From contig JADIIX010000101.1 in assembly GCA_027604505.1 (NCBI GenBank), positions 1 to 64,000 on the forward strand: a DNA stretch of 64,000 nt. The letters run 5' to 3'. Below the pieces are notes generated by a model. That model made no database searches, had not been told where the DNA came from, and worked only from the letters and a program-made list of their open reading frames with translations. Below, piece by piece: positions 2,840-52,999 of the stretch (position 1 is the stretch's first letter; every line of letters starts with the position of its first letter). A program made the translations under genes and the position numbers. This DNA comes from Gonapodya sp. JEL0774. Its lineage: Eukaryota.

Positions 2840-2849
2840 NNNNNNNNNN
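2840..2849. other. Assembly gap (N run) flanked by low-complexity G/C sequence
   Basis: 10 Ns with nearly pure G/C flanks. Confidence 0.95.
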
Positions 2850-4180: not shown

Positions 4181-5877
4181 TGTGCTCGGCGTGACTCGGG
4201 GGGAGCCAGGCCGGCTGGGGGGCATGGCGAGCAGGGCGGCAGATATGGCGAGCCAGCGGTGTACTTGGTATGGTGTGTTGAATTGTGTGACCCGGTTGCG
4301 TCTTATAGAGACCGTTGCATGCATGGAAGACGGAGATGCGAGACGAGATCCAATATATTCCAGGACAGACAACGATATATATGTAGTTTTGGTCCCCGAG
4401 CTCGTTGGACGTTGGACGTGCGCGACGAAGGTTACATTGATGTGTATACTTGCTTCATACTTGATCCTCACCGCGCCCAGTACGTCTGGGGCCCACGTAG
4501 GTATGTACTGCCCACTCCACGAAACCGCCCCCCCCGTCCCCCGCGCCCCCCCCCTGCCCGTGTACATACAAACCAATTTCCAAAATACAAAATGTAAAAA
4601 CGCGAATGGTTCTTATATTTTCTCACCCCACTTTTTCCGCGTGGGTGTGGGTGATGCTGCAGCCGTATATCCCTGTCTCCCACGTACCCCGGCCCCTGAA
4701 TCCGGGAGCGGCCCGCCGCCGACGCGAGTCGGTCCGGTGTGATCTGAGTGTTGCCTGGTGTGGCCCGGTATGGTAATATTGGGAGACGGCCGGCTGTTTC
4801 ACGCAACATTCAAGTAATATGGAGCGAGAGAATGAAGATACCAACGTTCGGGTGGCACCCACCGGGCACCAAACGGTTCTCGGGCGCGTCCAGCAGCTCG
4901 CTCGCTCGCGCCGATATGTACGTCGCGGGTGCAGGACCACATCGGGGTCGGAATGACAAGGTAGAGGCAGGGCCACACACAGGGCACAAGCGACGAAACA
5001 GGATATTTTGCCATACTGATTACAAGTTTTTACAGTGATTTCATCCCGTCGATGTGTTTTCCCCCACCGGTTCGTTCGTGTGTGCTTGGTGAGTCTTGAT
5101 CAACCTTGACATCAGATCACGAACCAACACAAGACACAAGACGGATTCTCCGACATCCTCACACGCGCACCAAGAAACTCTTATGGCGCAAAGGGCTTCG
5201 CCGGAGCGACACGCGGCTGGAACCACTGGAAGGGTAGATAATTATTATCCCGCATTTCAAAAATTATTCATGACCCATGAATCACACCTTGTAAAAACCG
5301 GTGACGATAACACTGGCGGATCAGATCAGATTCGAGCCGATTGATCGAAGCCACCAAAGATGAGGAACGGGGGTGACTCGAATTGTGTTTGGTGGTCGGC
5401 GAAACAAACAACGATCCCGCGCCGGCGCCACCCCGCCTGTCTCTCGTTTTTCTTTCTTTTTTTAAAACGTTTACCCCCCCCCCCCCCCCCTGGTATGTAT
5501 AAATGTTTTCAACCAATGCAGTTCATTCGCACTGGCTGCCTTCGCCGAGATCCAACGCCAATCCATAACCCCGCGCGTTACAATATGCGTCGCTCAGAAG
5601 CTTCAGCTTAAAAGCAACACATCGGGCAATCTCTCCTCACCGCCCAAAGAGAAGTAAAAAATTGAACTGTATTCAGGACCTTCTTATCTCACCGCCTCAA
5701 TTTGTGCGGGCCGTGCTTGATGGGGGTCTGGGCCACTAGGAAAAAGGATATGTCTCCATCAAAGGGTCCGGATCAACGCAGAAGATTACCGATTTCGCTC
5801 TCAACGTGTGCCGACAATTCAGTGCCCCACTTCTTGCTTGTTGTTTTGACATCGGCACAAAGCGACGATAGAGGATC

Positions 5878-8829
5878 ATGGTTTGGTGGAAAACCCTGCT
5901 CGGGGTCTCGGTGCGTCAACCCCTGTCATGCTGCTTTGGCGGTGGTAGAATGACTCGCGGGGATTCCCTCCCACCTACCGATTCATTCTACCACCTCGCT
6001 CGCTTCGATACTAAACCAAAAATCCTCCTTGGGCCTCCATTCTCTTCCTCCATGTTTCCTACTGCCTCTCGGTGGCAACTATATGTGCTGATAGGAGAAG
6101 CAATCGTCGCTTGAGGATGAACGTGAGGATGAGGCTGAAGTGAACGTATAACCTCGGGCCGTGGACCAGTTCTCACTCTTTTCTGTTTCTGATTCGATCC
6201 GGTCGGCATTTCACATCTCACTGTACTGTCTTGACATCAGTCGTGAGTCTCTGATGCAACACAACGCTCTGGGTGGGGGCACCACAAGTCGAAATTGATG
6301 GGTTTTACATCACACTGCTGTCGTGCCACGCACCTAGGTTCTCGCAAAACTCGGGTACAAGCAAGAAACCAAGCGGCCATTCAACAAGCTGAGTGAGTAG
6401 AGCGGTAGTCACCCTTTTTTCGTCGGAGGCCTGGTTTGTCAACTCAGCGTCGGTCGAACTAACGCATGGTTTCACCTTGGTGCGCAATGAACATTTGCCT
6501 CCCCGCCGCTGAAACCCAACAGCAACATGGGCCCTCAACTACACCAACGTGTGTGTCCTACTCAACGTTCCGTTGATGTCTTACGCGCTCTCAACGGGTG
6601 GACCGGTGAGTGATACATTTGTCGAGCACATCTGAAGGATGTCGCTCGTGGCGGCGGAAATTCACCGAAACCAACCCATTTCACCTCCCCACACTCTTCC
6701 CTCACCAGCCCATGGTCATGTGGTCTTTCTGGCCCGTCACACTCCTGGTCTGCACCGTCGCTCTCTCCATGGCTGAGCTGTGCTCGGCCATGCCCACCAT
6801 GGGTGGATTGTACAACTTTGCTGCACGGCTTGGAGGGCCGAAATGGGGACCGTACGCGGCGTGGTATGTACTCGTGAGGGAGGAACTTGATCGAGCGGTG
6901 CCGGTGCCGAAGATGATCCTTTCTCACCAAAGTTTTTGTACTTTCGACCACAACTTAGGAACACCGCGTGGTTCAACTACATCTCCAACGTGGCAGGTCT
7001 CGCCAACGCCGCTCAAGGCTCTGCGTACCTCCTCGTTGTCATTCGTCAGCTGAACTCGGACTGGGTCCCCGAGATTGAGGAGATGCGCCACGTCGAGTAC
7101 GGATTGTACTTTGGAGTGGTGTCCGTTGTGGCGCTCATCAATATTTTTGGAGAGGATTACTTGTGAGTTGGATCTGCACGCAATTGGAGTTGTCATGATA
7201 TCACGCGGTACCAAATTTTCGCGTCGTCGTCGTCTCTGCACCCAGACCCTCTGTCGCCCAATTTGCCTCCTACATCATCTTCCTCGGTACCATGGTCATC
7301 GCCATCTACCCGCTCGCCTATCAAGGTTCCGCCAACCTCGCCTCTGGCGAATTCGTTTTCATCACGTGGCAGAATGGCACAGGTGCCGACTCAAACGTGT
7401 TGGTGGCGTTGATCGGGTTGTTGCCTGCCGCTTGGAACATTGTCGGATTCGGTGGGTTCTGAGCTGGTACTTCGGGTGATGAAAGGGCCTTTTTCAGTAC
7501 GGGTTCTTCCTGCTGATCCTTGCAACGACCTTTCAATCAACGCAGATGCCTCTTCTCACATTGCCGAAGAAACATCGGACAGTACCACATCCGCTTCGAC
7601 GAGTTTGGTCTTCACGGTCATTGCCGGTGCCGTCGGTGGATTCTTCCGTGAGTGGCTCGTTGAACAAGAGGCCCCCGCATTCTACGTCAATGGAAGAGCT
7701 TTGTCTCATTGATCACTCCAGTCTGGGTCTGCCAGTTCTTCCTCATCACCGATCTCGATGCCGTCTTGAACGGCGACTATGACCCCTACGTGCAGTACGT
7801 TTCCGCTTGCTCAACCTTGTTCCGAACACGATCTCGATCATGACCCGTCGTCGTCGCTCCATCTTTTTGACAGGATCTGGATGAACACTGTTGGCCCTGG
7901 TCCGACTACAGCATTCCTGACCATCATGTGTTTCAGCTTCATAATGACTGCGTCTGCGAGTGTCGTTGTTACCTCGAGAAGTAAGTTTTATTTCCCCTGG
8001 TGTTTTGGCTTTCTGATTCGTATATGGTTTCCCTAACGTGGTTCAATCCGCCGTACTCAGTGTTTTTCTCACTGGTTCGCGACAAGGCATTGCCTTTCAG
8101 CGACTTCTGGTACTACATCAGTGAGCCTTTTACCCTACAGATTGAATGAATATTGGGGAGGATCGACTCATTTCAATTCAAATGTCAGGCCCCACCCTCC
8201 ACTCCCCCGTCCGCGCAATTTCGTTGACCGCGTTCCTCACTTACGTTCTCGGCTTGCCCATTCTTTTCTCTGACGTGGTGTTCCCCGCGTTGACCTCTGT
8301 CTCCACCATTTGCTTCTACGTCTCGGTAAGTTGGAAGTACTGCTACCGATCGCAACCCACCTTTAAATAGTACTACCATTGGTGGGGGATCGATAGACTG
8401 TCATCCCGACATTGCTCCGCATCACCGTGGCCAAGGACACTTTCAAGAGGGGACCCTGGCATTTGGGCGAGTGGACCTACGCCTCAGGCTGGACGGCTGT
8501 TATTTTCGTCGCGTTCATGACTGTGGCGTTTGTGTTGCCGGTGGGTCTAACGTCCCTCTGCGGAGCACCCTCGTGCGGGTTCGGATTTCTGACGATCTTG
8601 GACACTTCACAATCAGACCGAATACCCAGTCGAGCCGGATCTCTCCAACTTTAACTTCTCCCCCCTCATCTTTGGTATTCTCCTCGTTTTCATCAACGTG
8701 TGGTGGGTGTTGTTCACCCGACACACTTATCACGGCCCTGTGCGCAACATCTCGGACGAAGAACTCGCCAAGCTTGAGGACAAGCTCACAACTTCGCAGA
8801 CGTCTGCTAATATCGGTGTTGCTGCGTGA
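5878..8829 (+). CDS. APC-superfamily amino acid/GABA/choline-type permease (multi-exon), copy A
   Basis: EDELVLAKLGYKQETKRPF; STGGP; SMAELCSAMPTMGGLY; SHIAEETSD; FKRGPWHLG; many hydrophobic segments. First exons 5878-5910, 6095-6122, 6241-6242, 6338-6392. Stop TGA at 8827-8829. Confidence 0.92.
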
Positions 8830-9084
8830 TTGATGATCTGCAGCTCACAAAATTGTGGGAGGGATTGGAGTGGATTGGGGTATTTTTTTTGGCGCAGGAG
8901 CAGGATCATATTTTTTTCCCGCAACTACGTCATCAGATTATTATCGGTCTAATATTAACATCCAACAGTTCTTCTGGCAGCGGTTGTGAATTATGCAATA
9001 ATGTTGCCCTGTATGGTTTAACTTTGTGTTTCATTTATGTAGTTGTTGCAAACGCAACAGTTTGCGCTGCAACACCACGTCCGC

Positions 9085-9292
9085 GCCAGATCTCTTGTAC
9101 TTCAACTTCTCAGCCCCCATCTTCGGATTTCTTCTCATTTTCGTCAACGTGTGTTGGTTGTTGTTTACCCGGCATACGCCTCTGTGCACAACATCTTTTG
9201 AGGACAAGCTCTGAAGTGCGCAGGCGAAAAACATTGGTCTCACTGTGTAACTAGCGTTCCTAAGGTTTTGCGAGGAATTGGAGTGGGCTGGA
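9085..9292 (+). pseudogene. Degenerate duplicate of the last exon and 3' flank of permease copy A
   Basis: PDLLYFNFSAPIFGFLLIFVNVCWLLFTRH...EDKL aligns with copy A PDLSNFNFSPLIFGILLVFINVWWVLFTRH...EDKL. It has deletions, no upstream exons, and a similar downstream GGAnTTGGAGTGG motif. Confidence 0.8.
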
Positions 9293-9662
9293 AGGTTGAG
9301 TTCTTGGTGCATGCGTGCGACCGGCTCTTATGGGAGAGTTTTTGAAACGAGTGATCATTGTAAAACGCAAAAACTCTCCTTCTCGATCCACTGAGTCATC
9401 GGCACCCCGAAGACTGTGCACTTCTTCATCCCTTAATGGATGCATACATCACCCCGCTTGTTTGGTTGTACTCATGTGAAAACAGATGCGTACGGAAGTT
9501 AAATATTCACCCTACCACTTTGAACTAATTTCCAAACAGTATAATAAGCACTGCAGAATAGAACAAAATAATGCTCAAAAACTCCTTGCTTAATGATTAT
9601 CCTGCAGTGCGCATCCAGGATCTGTTGACATTGTTACTCATCTCTCCCCGTATCCGGCCCAC

Positions 9663-12347
9663 TCAAACGGCATCCGTTGCCCCAATCTGAGCAGTTCCTT
9701 CCTTGTTCCCTTTCAACATCAGTTCTTCTTCGAGCTTGGCAACCTGCTCTTCCGAAATGTTACGGACGGGTCCCTTGAAAGTGTGACGGGCGATTAAGAA
9801 CCACCAAAGATTAATAAATATGAGCACGATGGCGAACACAATGGGAGCGAAGTTCAAGTTGGAGAGGTCAGGCGCCACGGGATATTCGGTCTGAGTGGGG
9901 AGGGTGGGGCAGAAGAACGAATGCAGAACATAATGACATCACCGCGTTCCCTGATCCGAGGACGCATGCGTTTCTCAACATACTGGTAGCATGAAAATGA
10001 CCGTCATGAAGGCGACAAAGATTACTGCAATCCAACCTGAAGGGAACGCCCATTTACCCAAATGCCACGGACCGGGCTTGAAGTTCTCCCGACCGACGGT
10101 GATGCGAAGAAGGGTCGGAATCACGGTCTTCGGATGAAAAAAAAAATATTGAGACGTGGCGCTTCATATCAGAAAGGTGACGACCAATCAAGTTCTCACC
10201 GATATAAAGAAGCACACTGTCGAAACGGAGGTCAACGCCGGGAACACGACATCGGAGAAGAGTGTGGGGAGACCGAGAACCCAGGTGAGGAACATGGTGA
10301 GAAGGATGGCTCGGATCGGTGAGTGGAAAGTTGGGTCTGGAACATATACAACGGCAGGTGAACTGCAAAGAAAGGAACAGTACAAAGAGCTGGGCAATTA
10401 GTTACTCACTGATGTAGTACCAGAAATCACTGAAGGGCAGCGCCTTGTCACGGACCAAGGAGAAGAACACTATGACCAGCAAACAGATCAGTTTCGCTCG
10501 ATGCAGGGATGTATGGGGTACTAACTGCGAGATGTAACTACCACGCTGGCGCATGAGGTCATGACAAAGCTGAAAAACATAATGGCGAGGAACACTGTTG
10601 TCGCTGTCGGACCAACCGTGCCGAGCCAGATTCTGAGTAACATAGCGACGGGAAGAAGCGATTACCAAACTGTCGAAACCATACAAATTCTTGCACGGTC
10701 TACCGACTCAACATATGGGTCATAGTCACTGGATAAAACGGCGTCAATGTCCGTGACGAGGTAGAACTGGCAGGTCCATACTGATTGTTGATGTCACACC
10801 CTTATGTTTAGCGCTCATGGATCGGGCTTGTAAAACTTGCTCTACTTACGAATAAAGCCACCGATGGCACCTGCAATGACAGTGAAAACCAAACTGGTCG
10901 AAGCCGAAGTCGTACTCTCTGAGGTTTCCTCAGCAATGTGTGACGATGCATCTGGGAACGAAGTTGAACAGCTTAGTGAATTGGCAGGAATAGTTCAGAT
11001 CAAGCAGCTGCAGATATGCACCGAATCCCACAATGTTCCAGGCTGCTGGAAGCAGACCGATAAGAGCAACAAGCACATTCGATTCTGACCCCGTGTAGTT
11101 TTGCCATGTTATAAATACGAACTCCGCACTCGCAAGGTTCGAAGACCCCACGTAGGCGAGGGGGTAAATTGCGATGACCCAAGAACCGATAAAGATGACA
11201 TATGACGCGAACTGCGCAACAGTTGGGCTGGAAGTCGCGAGAAGGATATGATTTATCGTGAACACAGAGCAAGCCACTACGGTACACGAACAGGTAGTCC
11301 TCTCCAAAAATGTTGATGACCGCGACGAGGGCGACAATCACAAGGTAGAACACATATTCTATGTTGCGGAGCTCTTGGTCTTCTGGCATCCAGTCGCTGT
11401 TAAGCTGGCGGATGACCGTGAGCAGGTAGGCGGAAGCTTGAGCAGCATTCGCCAGTCCCGCTACGTTAGAGATGTAATTGAACCATGCAGTGTTCCTAAT
11501 CCATGCGAATATTGATCGGAGATCAACACAACATAATGGTGGCACGGGACACTGGTCGAAACATACCACGCGGCATAGGGTCCCCATTTCGGACCCCCCA
11601 GACGGGCAGCAAAATTGTACAAACCACCCATTGTCGGCATGGATGAGCACAACTCAGCCATTGAAAGCGCCACACAGCAGACAAGTAGCGTGACCGGCCA
11701 GAAAGACCAAAGGACCATAGGCTAGCATCCAGTGAGAGAATGTAAGAGGGGATCAAACCCGGAAAATTTTCAGGGCGGTGCAATTGAGGCTCACGGGTCC
11801 ACCTGTGGAAAGAGCGTAGCTCATGAGAGGGACATTCAGAAGGAGGCAGACGTTGGTGTAGTTGAGAGCCCATGTTGCTGCATAGCAATAATAATCGCAA
11901 GGCGCATGTGTGGAGTTATTGAGCTTATATTTCTCGGCGATGAGAAGTGCGCGCGGGACCTACTGAGCTTGTTGAAGGGTCGTTTTGTTTCCTGCTTGTA
12001 GCCAAGCTTTGCGAGGACCTGGAATTGAAGTTCCAAACCGGTTGAAGCGCGCCGATCGCTGGCGCCGCCGTCGATATCAACTCACCACTGTTGATTCGAT
12101 AATAAGTTCGACGGGAGACAAAAGTTCACGCTTTCAATGGCACACACGCTTCAGTTCCAGTAAACGATAGACGCGCACCTTCGTCTTCCAAGTACGTTTT
12201 CGTTTCCTATGTGTTGTGGGCAGCGTTTCAGATAAAATGTGATCGCAAGGTGGGTCTCGGCATGAGCTGAATCATCCCCCAGCTGGACTCTTCATATGCC
12301 CCAGAGGAACTCACCGGAAGGCCGAGAAGCTTTCTTGTCCAAGACAT
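9663..12347 (-). CDS. APC-superfamily amino acid/GABA/choline-type permease, copy B (convergent paralog of copy A)
   Basis: Same motifs and intron positions as copy A. First exons 12347-12315, 12206-12179, 12087-12086, then from 12018: MSWTRKLLGLP|ETKTYLEDEV|VLAKLGYKQE. Confidence 0.92.
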
Positions 12348-12706
12348 TGTTTTGGACGTCACAGATACAGACGAAGGGAACTGTCAAATGGACGCGTTTG
12401 CCAAGACAAGGTCCCGGGGTTTATCGGTTGCTTCGCCACCGGCACAAGTGGCAAAACCCTCCCGCTCAGGCAAGGAAGCTAGATATTTTTCTCGTAAAGT
12501 CAAAGCGAATAATTTTCAGCTACCTCAACATAGTAACAAATAGTTGCTCACATCCAGATTGAAGGAATATGTGGTCGAATGGTTGCAATCACCCATTCCC
12601 CACTCGAGAAGGTACCCATTTGAGGGAGCGCCGCGGACGATCACTTTGAGGGGGAAGGCGACAATTCATCATTCTAGTAGATTCAAGGAAATCAACAGCT
12701 ATAGGC

Positions 12707-50938: not shown

Positions 50939-52999
50939 ATGGCACATCCAGTTCTCGTCTCGGCCCCTGGAAAGGCCATCATATTTGGGGAGCATGCTGT
51001 GGTCTACGGAAAGGTGAATCAAACGATTTCAGACAATTCCAGCACGCTGTTCTTGCTAAACAAGTTACACGGCTACTGCAATCGCTTTTGCAAGACGGCT
51101 ATTGCTGCATCTGTTGGGCTCCGCACTTATACTCTGCTGAATCCCACGGACAAGAAGTCAGTCAAGCTGGTCTTCAGCGATATTGGGTTCGAGCAATCAT
51201 GGGACCTGGAACAACTGGCACCGATACGAGAAGCATTCGTAGCAGAAGGAGGATGTAAGTATGCCCGCGGTGATACGGTTTTCAGTGCGTAATGGAGTCA
51301 CGGCAGTTCCCTTTCTGTTCAACAATGGAAGCCTTCTCTCATCCCACACCCATATCCGACACTGTACGAAGCCATCTTTCTCCTCTTCTGAGTGTTGACC
51401 CTGCATCCTCGAAGGGCCGTGCGGCGGTGGCTTTTCTCTACCTTTTCTTGGGAATTTGTGACTCGTGAGCGATGCCCACAAGTTTTCCATCGCATGGATT
51501 CCGGTTTTTTGCGTACCTTGCACCTGCAGATTGCTTTCAATAGAGGTTACTGTTCGCTCGCTTCTTCCCGTCGGAGCAGGACTCGGCTCCTCTGCCTCTT
51601 TCTCAGCCTGTCTCGCGTCTGGGCTCCTCGTCTTCTTCAACCGCGTCCCCGTTCCGAACGTCACCTCCAAAGATGCCAGTGCGCCAGGCCCCTGTGACCC
51701 ATTTCAATCGTTATCTTCAGGTAATCGTTGGTCCTCGAGCGATATGGAACTTACGAACCAATGGGCGTTCATGGCGGAAAAGGTGATCCACGGGAACCCT
51801 TCTGGCATCGACAACTCCGTGTGCGTGCATGGCGGAGCCATCCTCTACACGCGAGGAAAGCCTCTTGAGCAGCTCGTGGGGTGAGTATGGTACTTCGAAC
51901 AGTGACTTTTCCGCCACTCTCTGATCGTACCGAATCCTAATAACTCGCATGCCCAGCTTCACTTCCCTTCGTTTTCTTGTAACAAACACTCTCGTTCCCA
52001 AGGACACTTTGGTGCAGGTGGCCAATGTTGCGAAACGGCGCGAACGATATCCGGACATATTTAACCACATCATAGAGGCAGTTCAAGGTGTAAGTAGAGC
52101 ATGCGTGGACGCTGTGGAGAAATACGGTAAGCTCAAATTACATGAGTTCGCTTTTGGCGGGAATCCGGTGAATAACTGACCGCAACGCATCTGGGCCACC
52201 AGAATCAAGTGGGAAGCAACATTCCGACAAGGCAGCTCTATACGATGCTATTGAGGTTTGTGGTATTGCGAAAACTGCATTATGATAACTTTAATGTCCC
52301 GCTGTCCACCTTGTTACAGTTCTTGATCGACACAAACCAGACCCTCCTCGTGTCATTGGGTGTGTCACATTCTTCCCTGGAAAATGTTCGATCTATTGCA
52401 GCTCGCCACGGCTTGTTTACTAAACTGACGGGGGGTGGCGGAGGTGGTTGTGCGGTTACTGTGGTACGAGATGGTGTGTGGCAGGACTCGCAATCTCTCT
52501 CATCGTTCCCTGCACATGGTTGGGGGGGGGGGGGGGGGGGGGGCGGAGGGACGGCGGGAGGGGGGGGCGTAGGGGGGGTCGACAGTTTGAGGCAGGCGGA
52601 GGGAGGGACACTGGGTNNNNNNNNNNGGCTTGGCTTTTTTAATACCATTTCGGGGGGGTGGGGATGTTTTTTTGTGGTTCCTGGGGTAGTTGTTGGTGTG
52701 TGTCCGGCTTCGCTATCTAGATAAAGTTTTCCCTCACATAATTAACCCCCCCCCCCCCCCCCCCCATATATGATACGGTAGATTTCCCTGAATCCAGCCT
52801 TAATACCGTTCTTGGTGATCTTCAGACTGCGGGCTATGAGAGCTTTGTCACTTCGGTGGGCTGCGCCGGCGTGGCGTGTCACGACATCCTTCAGACTGCG
52901 GAGTTGCTTCGGGGTGACGACAAAGCGGTTTCTTCAGATAGATTTCTGCGCGCAGATTTGATTACTCTTCGAAATTGCTTCCAAGATGAAATTATGTAA
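50939..52999 (+). CDS. ERG12: Mevalonate kinase
   Basis: SAPGKAIIFGEHAVVYGK, LPVGAGLGSSA, EKVIHGNPSGIDNSV, LGVSHSSL, KLTGGGGGGC (GHMP kinase motifs). Confidence 0.95.
52617..52626. other. Assembly gap inside the last ERG12 intron, flanked by G/C homopolymer runs
   Basis: 10 Ns; poly-G upstream and poly-C near 52746-52765. Confidence 0.95.

What the first reader, a model, noticed from the sequence alone, without database searches (positions are those of the whole stretch)
6241..6242. Two-nucleotide micro-exon conserved in both permease paralogs
Seen: copy A has ...GAT GAA C|gtgagg..catcag|TC|gtgagt..cctag|GTT CTC GCA; copy B has ...GAC GAA G|gtgcgc..caacag|TG|gtgagt..ccag|GTC CTC GCA (12087-12086). 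In both, a 33-nt ATG exon and a 28-nt exon precede it, and only inclusion of the 2 nt restores the frame (LEDE-L/V-VLAKLGYKQE). The flanking introns have diverged but the cag|NN|gtgagt arrangement is kept. Exons this small are extremely rare, invisible to most gene finders and aligners, and imply sequential or intron-definition splicing.
Basis: seen in the sequence. Interest (0 to 1): 0.78.

Follow-up and report, generated by a model that had tools for sequence, protein, structure and literature searches.

The report
Two-base exon in twin fungal permeases
Two neighbouring amino-acid transporter genes of an early-branching aquatic fungus each carry two bases flanked by standard splice signals that are likely spliced in as a tiny exon; this is a known though uncommon gene feature, and the public gene models miss it.

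Summary
Observation confirmed; interpretation mostly supported; known kind. Both amino-acid permease paralogs (NCBI names them as Gonapodya sp. JEL0774 proteins) have CAG|NN|GTGAGT at the same place (6241-6242; 12087-12086, minus strand), although their introns and silent sites have fully diverged. A shuffled spacer gives the strict motif in 13 and 2 of 20,000 trials. The best evidence is the Hyaloraphidium orthologue. It has exactly 10 residues between the exon-1 and exon-4 peptides, which is 28+2 nt, and 129 of 180 homologue contexts put Asp where this path puts it. Joining exon 1 straight to exon 4 is also in frame, and the flawed G. prolifera model does exactly that. The upstream donors score weakly, and copy B has a same-length GC-donor alternative. 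No RNA could be examined. Such exons are known: Coprinopsis has 57 two-base exons, and Fusarium and plants have one-base exons. This scan has noted a one-base fungal exon on other DNA. The value is corrected gene models and a case from an early-diverging fungus.

The parts
5878..8829 (+). Copy A: amino-acid permease gene, 15 exons, 533 aa model. The NCBI model P0001 (KAJ3337950.1) starts only at residue 58
5878..5910 (+). Copy A exon 1 (33 nt, ATG, phase 0)
   Evidence: peptide conserved in copy B, P0002 and P0122
6095..6122 (+). Copy A exon 2 (28 nt, ends in phase 1); carries the acidic Glu-Asp-Glu patch
   Evidence: 5 of 9 residues identical to copy B, 4 of them through different codons
6123..6240 (+). 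Copy A intron 2 (118 nt, GTGAGG..CAG); donor scores weakly
6241..6242 (+). Copy A 2-nt micro-exon (TC), completing a Leu codon
6243..6337 (+). Copy A intron 3 (95 nt, GTGAGT..TAG); best-scoring donor in the spacer
6338..6392 (+). Copy A exon 4 (55 nt), LGYKQE family motif
9663..12347 (-). Copy B: paralog, 15 exons, 538 aa model, 79% identical to A, convergent with A. The NCBI model P0003 (KAJ3337951.1) starts only at residue 98
12315..12347 (-). Copy B exon 1 (33 nt)
12179..12206 (-). Copy B exon 2 (28 nt)
12088..12178 (-). Copy B intron 2 (91 nt, GTGCGC..CAG); a GC dinucleotide 2 nt into it could serve as a rival donor
12086..12087 (-). Copy B 2-nt micro-exon (TG), completing a Val codon
12019..12085 (-). 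Copy B intron 3 (67 nt, GTGAGT..CAG)
11964..12018 (-). Copy B exon 4 (55 nt)

Best explanation
Each paralog has two bases between a complete upstream and a complete downstream GT-AG intron, and these are likely spliced in as a constitutive 2-nt coding exon that finishes the codon begun by the last base of exon 2. Shown in the sequence: the splice signals, their conserved position, the open frame, and a gap-free match to the orthologue across the junction. Inferred: the ordinary (U2-type) spliceosome defines each short intron by itself and removes the two one after the other, because the factors that read the acceptor AG and the donor only 2 nt away cannot sit there at once (established splicing knowledge, recalled). 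The downstream intron, with the commonest donor GTGAGT, probably goes first and fuses the 2 nt to exon 4; this order is only about 55-60% likely. Skipping the 2 nt alone would shift the frame and stop after 88 codons, so selection keeps both sites. The exon was present before the duplication.
For: Orthologue P0122 (Hyaloraphidium curvatum, KAI9004975.1; 339 of 531 and 347 of 536 aligned residues identical) has exactly 10 residues between the exon-1 and exon-4 peptides. It aligns without a gap there and has Met where A has Leu and B has Val. Of 32 (A) and 86 (B) in-frame paths, 3 and 6 give 10 residues. The micro-exon path ranks first in both (BLOSUM62 24 and 15) and is the only listed 10-residue path using only GT donors in A. 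Among 352 homologues, 283 had the LGY anchor, giving 180 distinct contexts. Asp stands at position -7 in 129 of 180 and Glu at -6 in 85, which is where this path puts them. A profile scores the micro-exon paths 7.7 and 8.7, against -8.4 and -10.7 for skipping exons 2 and 3. Exon 2 evolves like coding DNA. Chance rates are low and introns are saturated. The micro-exon donors are the best-scoring in their spacers (7.8 and 9.4) and the acceptors (4.1 and 3.5) lie inside the training range of 1.5-10.3. Downstream starts lose the N-terminal part of the family profile: the NCBI models begin at TIGR00907 positions 37 and 78, against 1 for P0122. In plants, downstream-first removal predominates and 1-nt exons keep GTRAGT donors (PMC8831610).
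Against: No transcript was examined. The exon-2 donors score -2.7 (A) and -0.4 (B) on a matrix from the other 24 introns, below every training site (4.8-12.5, scored in-sample), and neither hexamer occurs among those 24. In A an in-frame donor at 6140 scores higher (0.7) and still fits the family profile fairly well (5.5). In B a GC donor at 12176 scores about the same (-0.9), gives the same length and scores 6.0 on the profile. The G. prolifera model P0002 lacks exactly these 10 residues. All three Gonapodya public models omit the exon. A simple U1-pairing count shows no donor difference between introns 2 and 3 in A (5.5 and 5.5), which weakens the order argument. P0122 is itself a gene model whose support I could not see. 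The DNA of P0002 and P0122 was not available, so conservation of the micro-exon beyond these two copies is untested.
Confidence: 0.88

Rival explanations
1. Exon 1 is spliced directly to exon 4 (both phase 0), dropping the 28-nt and 2-nt exons together, either as the main form or as a regulated 10-residue-shorter isoform lacking the acidic patch.
For: In frame and stop-free in both copies. The G. prolifera model P0002 has exactly this 10-residue gap. Exon-2 donors are weak.
Against: P0122 has the 10 residues. Exon 2 is conserved at the protein level with silent changes. The family profile scores this path -8.4 and -10.7. It needs a single intron spanning about 430 nt (A) or 300 nt (B), where the other 24 introns are 56-184 nt. 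P0002 has other apparent model errors, such as 8- and 5-residue insertions with a non-homologous stretch and a 19-residue deletion, and a gene finder unable to place 2 nt would produce this very gap.
Confidence: 0.05
2. One intron separates exon 2 and exon 4, using a different donor in each copy: the in-frame GT at 6140 in A and the GC at 12176 in B. The internal CAG-NN-GTGAGT is then unused.
For: These donors score as well as or better than the proposed exon-2 donors. The B path gives 10 residues and keeps the register.
Against: The A path adds 5 residues relative to P0122. The two donors are not at homologous positions, whereas all 14 proposed intron positions are shared. It leaves the conserved internal motif to chance (joint rate about 2e-5 with the loose donor set, 7e-3 with bare GT). 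A same-length single intron in A would need a GA donor.
Confidence: 0.04
3. Translation starts downstream, as in the NCBI models, and the 5' exons are non-coding or dead.
For: Both public models start downstream, at model residues 58 and 98.
Against: The two starts differ. Both lose the LGYKQE motif and the start of the family profile. The lost stretch is strongly conserved between A, B, P0002 and P0122.
Confidence: 0.015
4. Stwintron-like nesting: removing intron 2 creates a new donor that includes the 2 nt, so they are not exonic.
For: In B, removing intron 2 would create a GT three bases upstream of the GTGAGT donor (seen in the sequence).
Against: In A the same joint reads CT, not a donor. 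In B the product is one residue short of P0122 and scores -1.7 on the family profile.
Confidence: 0.015

Closest known systems
1-3 nt internal exons of Coprinopsis cinerea (PMC12230235; passages read)
   Same: Internal 2-nt coding exons in an intron-rich fungus whose omission breaks the frame. The paper counts 57 two-nt exons in 50 genes, and 89 genes with an exon of 3 nt or less.
   Different: Those come from a long-read-based annotation, whereas this one is inferred from sequence. This host is an early-diverging (monoblepharid) fungus and the gene is a permease.
One-nucleotide exon of Fusarium CYP621A (PMC12940212; abstract, Introduction and Discussion read)
   Same: Inferred the same way: a phase mismatch, conserved flanking splice sites, and motif spacing in homologues. 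Missed by annotation.
   Different: 1 nt, inside an invariant motif, with SRA support and 20 orthologues. Here the 2 nt code a variable hydrophobic residue in the N-terminal tail and were seen in two paralogs only.
Plant micro-exons of 15 nt or less, including the 1-nt exons of APC11 and VPS55 (PMC8831610; passages and section 7 read)
   Same: Near the N-terminus; omission gives truncated annotations, which in VPS55 lack a membrane helix; GTRAGT donor directly after the exon; consecutive intron removal.
   Different: Plant genes with RNA evidence and a measured order of splicing.
Trichoderma virens Xlr2 micro-exon switch (PMC11121469; abstract only)
   Same: A fungal micro-exon whose presence differs between transcripts.
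   Different: That exon is regulated by glucose. Nothing here shows regulation.
Amino acid/choline transporter-type APC permeases (TIGR00907, PF13520; plant BAT1-like and fungal GABA-permease-like hits)
   Same: Host gene family: Pfam AA_permease_2 above cut-off and best NCBIfam hit TIGR00907.
   Different: Scores (260-308 bits) are below the TIGR00907 cut-off of 598. The substrate is untested.

Membership tests
Internal coding micro-exon (3 nt or less) | Flanked by a canonical acceptor and donor, each belonging to a full-size intron | tested here: met
   CAG before and GTGAGT after in both copies; introns of 118/95 and 91/67 nt, within the 56-184 nt range of the other 24
Internal coding micro-exon (3 nt or less) | Inclusion gives an open frame matching homologues; omission alone breaks it | tested here: met
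   Gap-free against P0122 across the junction; skipping the 2 nt stops after 88 codons
Internal coding micro-exon (3 nt or less) | Conserved splice signals despite neutral divergence | tested here: met
   Two paralogs with saturated silent sites and unalignable introns; other species' DNA not available
Internal coding micro-exon (3 nt or less) | Present in mature mRNA | not testable with these tools
   No run could be laid on this stretch
Regulated (switch-like) micro-exon | Inclusion changes with condition and gives two products | not testable with these tools
   Needs RNA; the only hint is the P0002 model's 10-residue gap
Stwintron | Removing the inner intron creates the outer intron's donor, branch site or acceptor | tested here: not met
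   The second donor GTGAGT is intact in the genome; in A the joint gives no new donor; in B the alternative is one residue short
APC superfamily amino-acid permease | Pfam PF13520 above the gathering score | tested here: met
   154.6 and 136 bits against a cut-off of 27
TIGR00907 (2.A.3.4) subfamily | Score above the curated cut-off | tested here: not met
   298, 260.6 (truncated models) and 308.5 (P0122) against 598.3; it is still the best hit

The most novel reading that the evidence does not exclude
Exons 2 and 3 form a compound 30-nt cassette gated by a 2-nt exon. Full inclusion gives the permease with its acidic N-terminal patch, joint skipping gives an in-frame isoform without it (the form in the G. 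prolifera model), and skipping the 2 nt alone switches the gene off by frameshift. This would be a conserved three-way splicing switch on a nutrient transporter in an early-diverging fungus.
Probability: 0.07. Interest if true: 0.6.

Novelty: new member of a known kind. Interest (0 to 1): 0.32.

Why it matters
If confirmed, it adds a 2-nt exon from a monoblepharid fungus to a class reported from mushrooms, Fusarium and plants. My search for 'micro-exon' with 'chytrid' returned no paper. It explains why three public Gonapodya models are wrong at the N-terminus: two are truncated by 57 and 97 residues and one lacks exactly 10. The paralog pair, with fully diverged introns, is a tidy natural comparison for which signals a 2-nt exon needs. 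It does not change what is known about splicing.

Tried and rejected
No whole genome is held for this window, so no genome-wide scan was possible. Sequencing-run search on 5850-12400: no RNA holder listed; this is no evidence either way, and no reads were laid. A degenerate exon-4 pattern in metagenome contigs gave 2 loci (L001, L002); both are the same unrelated AT-rich, intron-free reading frame and were dropped. Window scan for YAG-N(1-9)-GTRAGT: no overall excess over shuffles. Four of the other hits (27798, 62444, 49825 minus, 36278 minus) were read in three frames and none could be assigned as a micro-exon. RNA folding of the four flanking introns: z 1.51, -1.08, 2.09 and -0.19, so no special structure. 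Branch-point-like motifs are found in only some introns and do not discriminate. Intron length is a weak argument against one fused intron (215 and 160 nt), since intron 1 of A is 184 nt. No solved structure matched P0122 by sequence. In the register count, 69 of 352 homologues lacked the anchor and were left out. A second count excluding plant-type contexts (129 of 145) is biased by its own definition and is not relied on. An off-by-one in copy B exon 4 was corrected. Paper searches showed no listing that describes this exon; only listings were seen for most hits. Supplements were not read; those of PMC12230235 might list permease micro-exons.

Full report
Observation. The described arrangement is present at the stated coordinates on both strands. 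Copy A has a 33-nt ATG exon (5878-5910), a 28-nt exon (6095-6122), a 118-nt intron, TC at 6241-6242, a 95-nt intron and exon 4 from 6338. Copy B, on the minus strand, has 12347-12315, 12206-12179, a 91-nt intron, TG at 12087-12086, a 67-nt intron and exon 4 from 12018. I mapped the two NCBI proteins back to the DNA and added the 5' exons. This gave two stop-free 15-exon models of 533 and 538 aa, whose first 14 exons have equal lengths and phases. They share 420 of 533 aligned residues.

Identity. An exon-6 search returned exact matches named as Gonapodya sp. JEL0774 HDU93_000274 and _000275, and an orthologue from G. prolifera. The proteins are APC-superfamily amino-acid permeases (PF13520; best NCBIfam hit TIGR00907, below its cut-off). 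A tree places A and B together (support 81/83, not strong) next to G. prolifera (98/99), with Hyaloraphidium outside.

Chance. The bare motif YAG-NN-GTRAGT is expected 1.38 times in this window and is seen twice, so the motif alone means little. Position is what counts. Shuffling each exon2-exon4 spacer while keeping dinucleotides gave the strict motif, with both sub-introns of at least 50 nt, in 13 (A) and 2 (B) of 20,000 trials. A looser donor set gave 124 and 58, and bare GT gave 2774 and 1040. None of these patterns lies in any of the other 24 introns. The copies are old enough to count as near-independent: 60 of 209 four-fold sites are identical, and none of the 14 intron pairs aligns above z 1.6.

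Is the 2 nt needed? Not for frame alone. With the exon-1 donor and exon-4 acceptor fixed, GT or GC donors, and introns of at least 45 nt, there are 32 (A) and 86 (B) stop-free in-frame paths. One joins exon 1 to exon 4 directly, and the G. prolifera model P0002 has exactly that 10-residue gap. Homologues decide between the paths. The Hyaloraphidium curvatum orthologue P0122 has 10 residues between the exon-1 and exon-4 peptides and aligns to both models without a gap there. Only 3 of 32 and 6 of 86 paths give 10 residues, and the micro-exon path is the best match in both copies. Among 352 homologues, 283 carry the LGY anchor in 180 distinct contexts. Asp stands seven residues before it in 129 and Glu six before it in 85, as the micro-exon path gives. 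Exon 2 shows coding-type change: 5 of 9 residues are identical, 4 of them by different codons. Skipping only the 2 nt shifts the frame to a stop after 88 codons, and retaining either flanking intron stops within 37 codons. The NCBI models start at residues 58 and 98, at profile positions 37 and 78 of TIGR00907, and so look like gene-finder truncations.

Against. No RNA could be examined. The exon-2 donors (GTGAGG, GTGCGC) score -2.7 and -0.4 on a small matrix from the other 24 introns, below all training sites. A has a better-scoring in-frame donor at 6140, which would add five residues. B has a GC donor at 12176 that gives the same length with Gly. These rivals are not homologous to each other and leave the shared internal motif unexplained. 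P0122 is a gene model whose evidence I did not see. P0002 disagrees, but it has other apparent errors. I could not read the DNA of either orthologue.

Mechanism. Shown: two complete canonical introns 2 nt apart. Inferred from general splicing knowledge (recalled): short fungal introns are recognised across the intron, and the acceptor and the donor 2 nt away cannot be occupied together, so removal is consecutive. The donor after the micro-exon is GTGAGT in both copies, the commonest hexamer (6 of 24) and the top score in the spacer. This suggests that the downstream intron leaves first and fuses the 2 nt to exon 4, the order that predominates in Arabidopsis micro-exons (PMC8831610, section 7). 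A simple U1-pairing count supports this only in B, and the introns show no special fold. A stwintron reading fails in A and loses a residue in B.

Known kinds. Coprinopsis cinerea has 57 two-nt exons in 50 genes (PMC12230235, passages). One-nt exons are documented in Fusarium CYP621A (PMC12940212; abstract, Introduction and Discussion) and in plant APC11 and VPS55 (PMC8831610, passages). A regulated fungal micro-exon is reported in Trichoderma Xlr2 (PMC11121469, abstract). Seven paper searches listed nothing on this gene, and none held both 'micro-exon' and 'chytrid'. Supplements were not read.

Verdict. A likely real, constitutive 2-nt exon (confidence 0.88) and a new member of a known kind; interest 0.32. 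The boldest reading not excluded is a regulated 28+2-nt cassette (probability 0.07).

Noticed in passing
window 9082-9196 (+): Degenerate partial duplicate of copy A's last exon (75% identical over 122 aligned nt to 8631-8752), lying between the two convergent paralogs.
   Followed up: partly
window 5878-5910 and 12347-12315: Exon 1 codes a short basic and hydrophobic peptide ending Leu/Phe-Gly, conserved in A, B, G. prolifera and Hyaloraphidium but not evident in the three other fungal homologues aligned. It may be an amphipathic targeting or anchoring helix (untested).
   Followed up: no
P0002 (KXS17265.1): The G. prolifera model appears mis-built at several places, with insertions of 8 and 5 residues around a non-homologous stretch and gaps of 10, 19 and 2 residues. 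It may instead be a decaying gene.
   Followed up: partly
window 27798 (+), 62444 (+), 49825 (-), 36278 (-): Other YAG-N(3-9)-GTRAGT sites. Their number is at chance level and none could be assigned. The 9-nt one at 27798, followed by an intron-like stretch, is the most exon-like.
   Followed up: partly
window 10127-10199 (-), copy B intron 13: Ends in AAG rather than YAG, the only one among 28 introns.
   Followed up: no
window 2840-2849 and 52617-52626: Two runs of 10 N (scaffold gaps), away from the finding.
   Followed up: no
L001:249-277 (-), L002:777-805 (+): Pattern hits in an unrelated AT-rich reading frame with a WCPHC, thioredoxin-like motif (label recalled).
   Followed up: no
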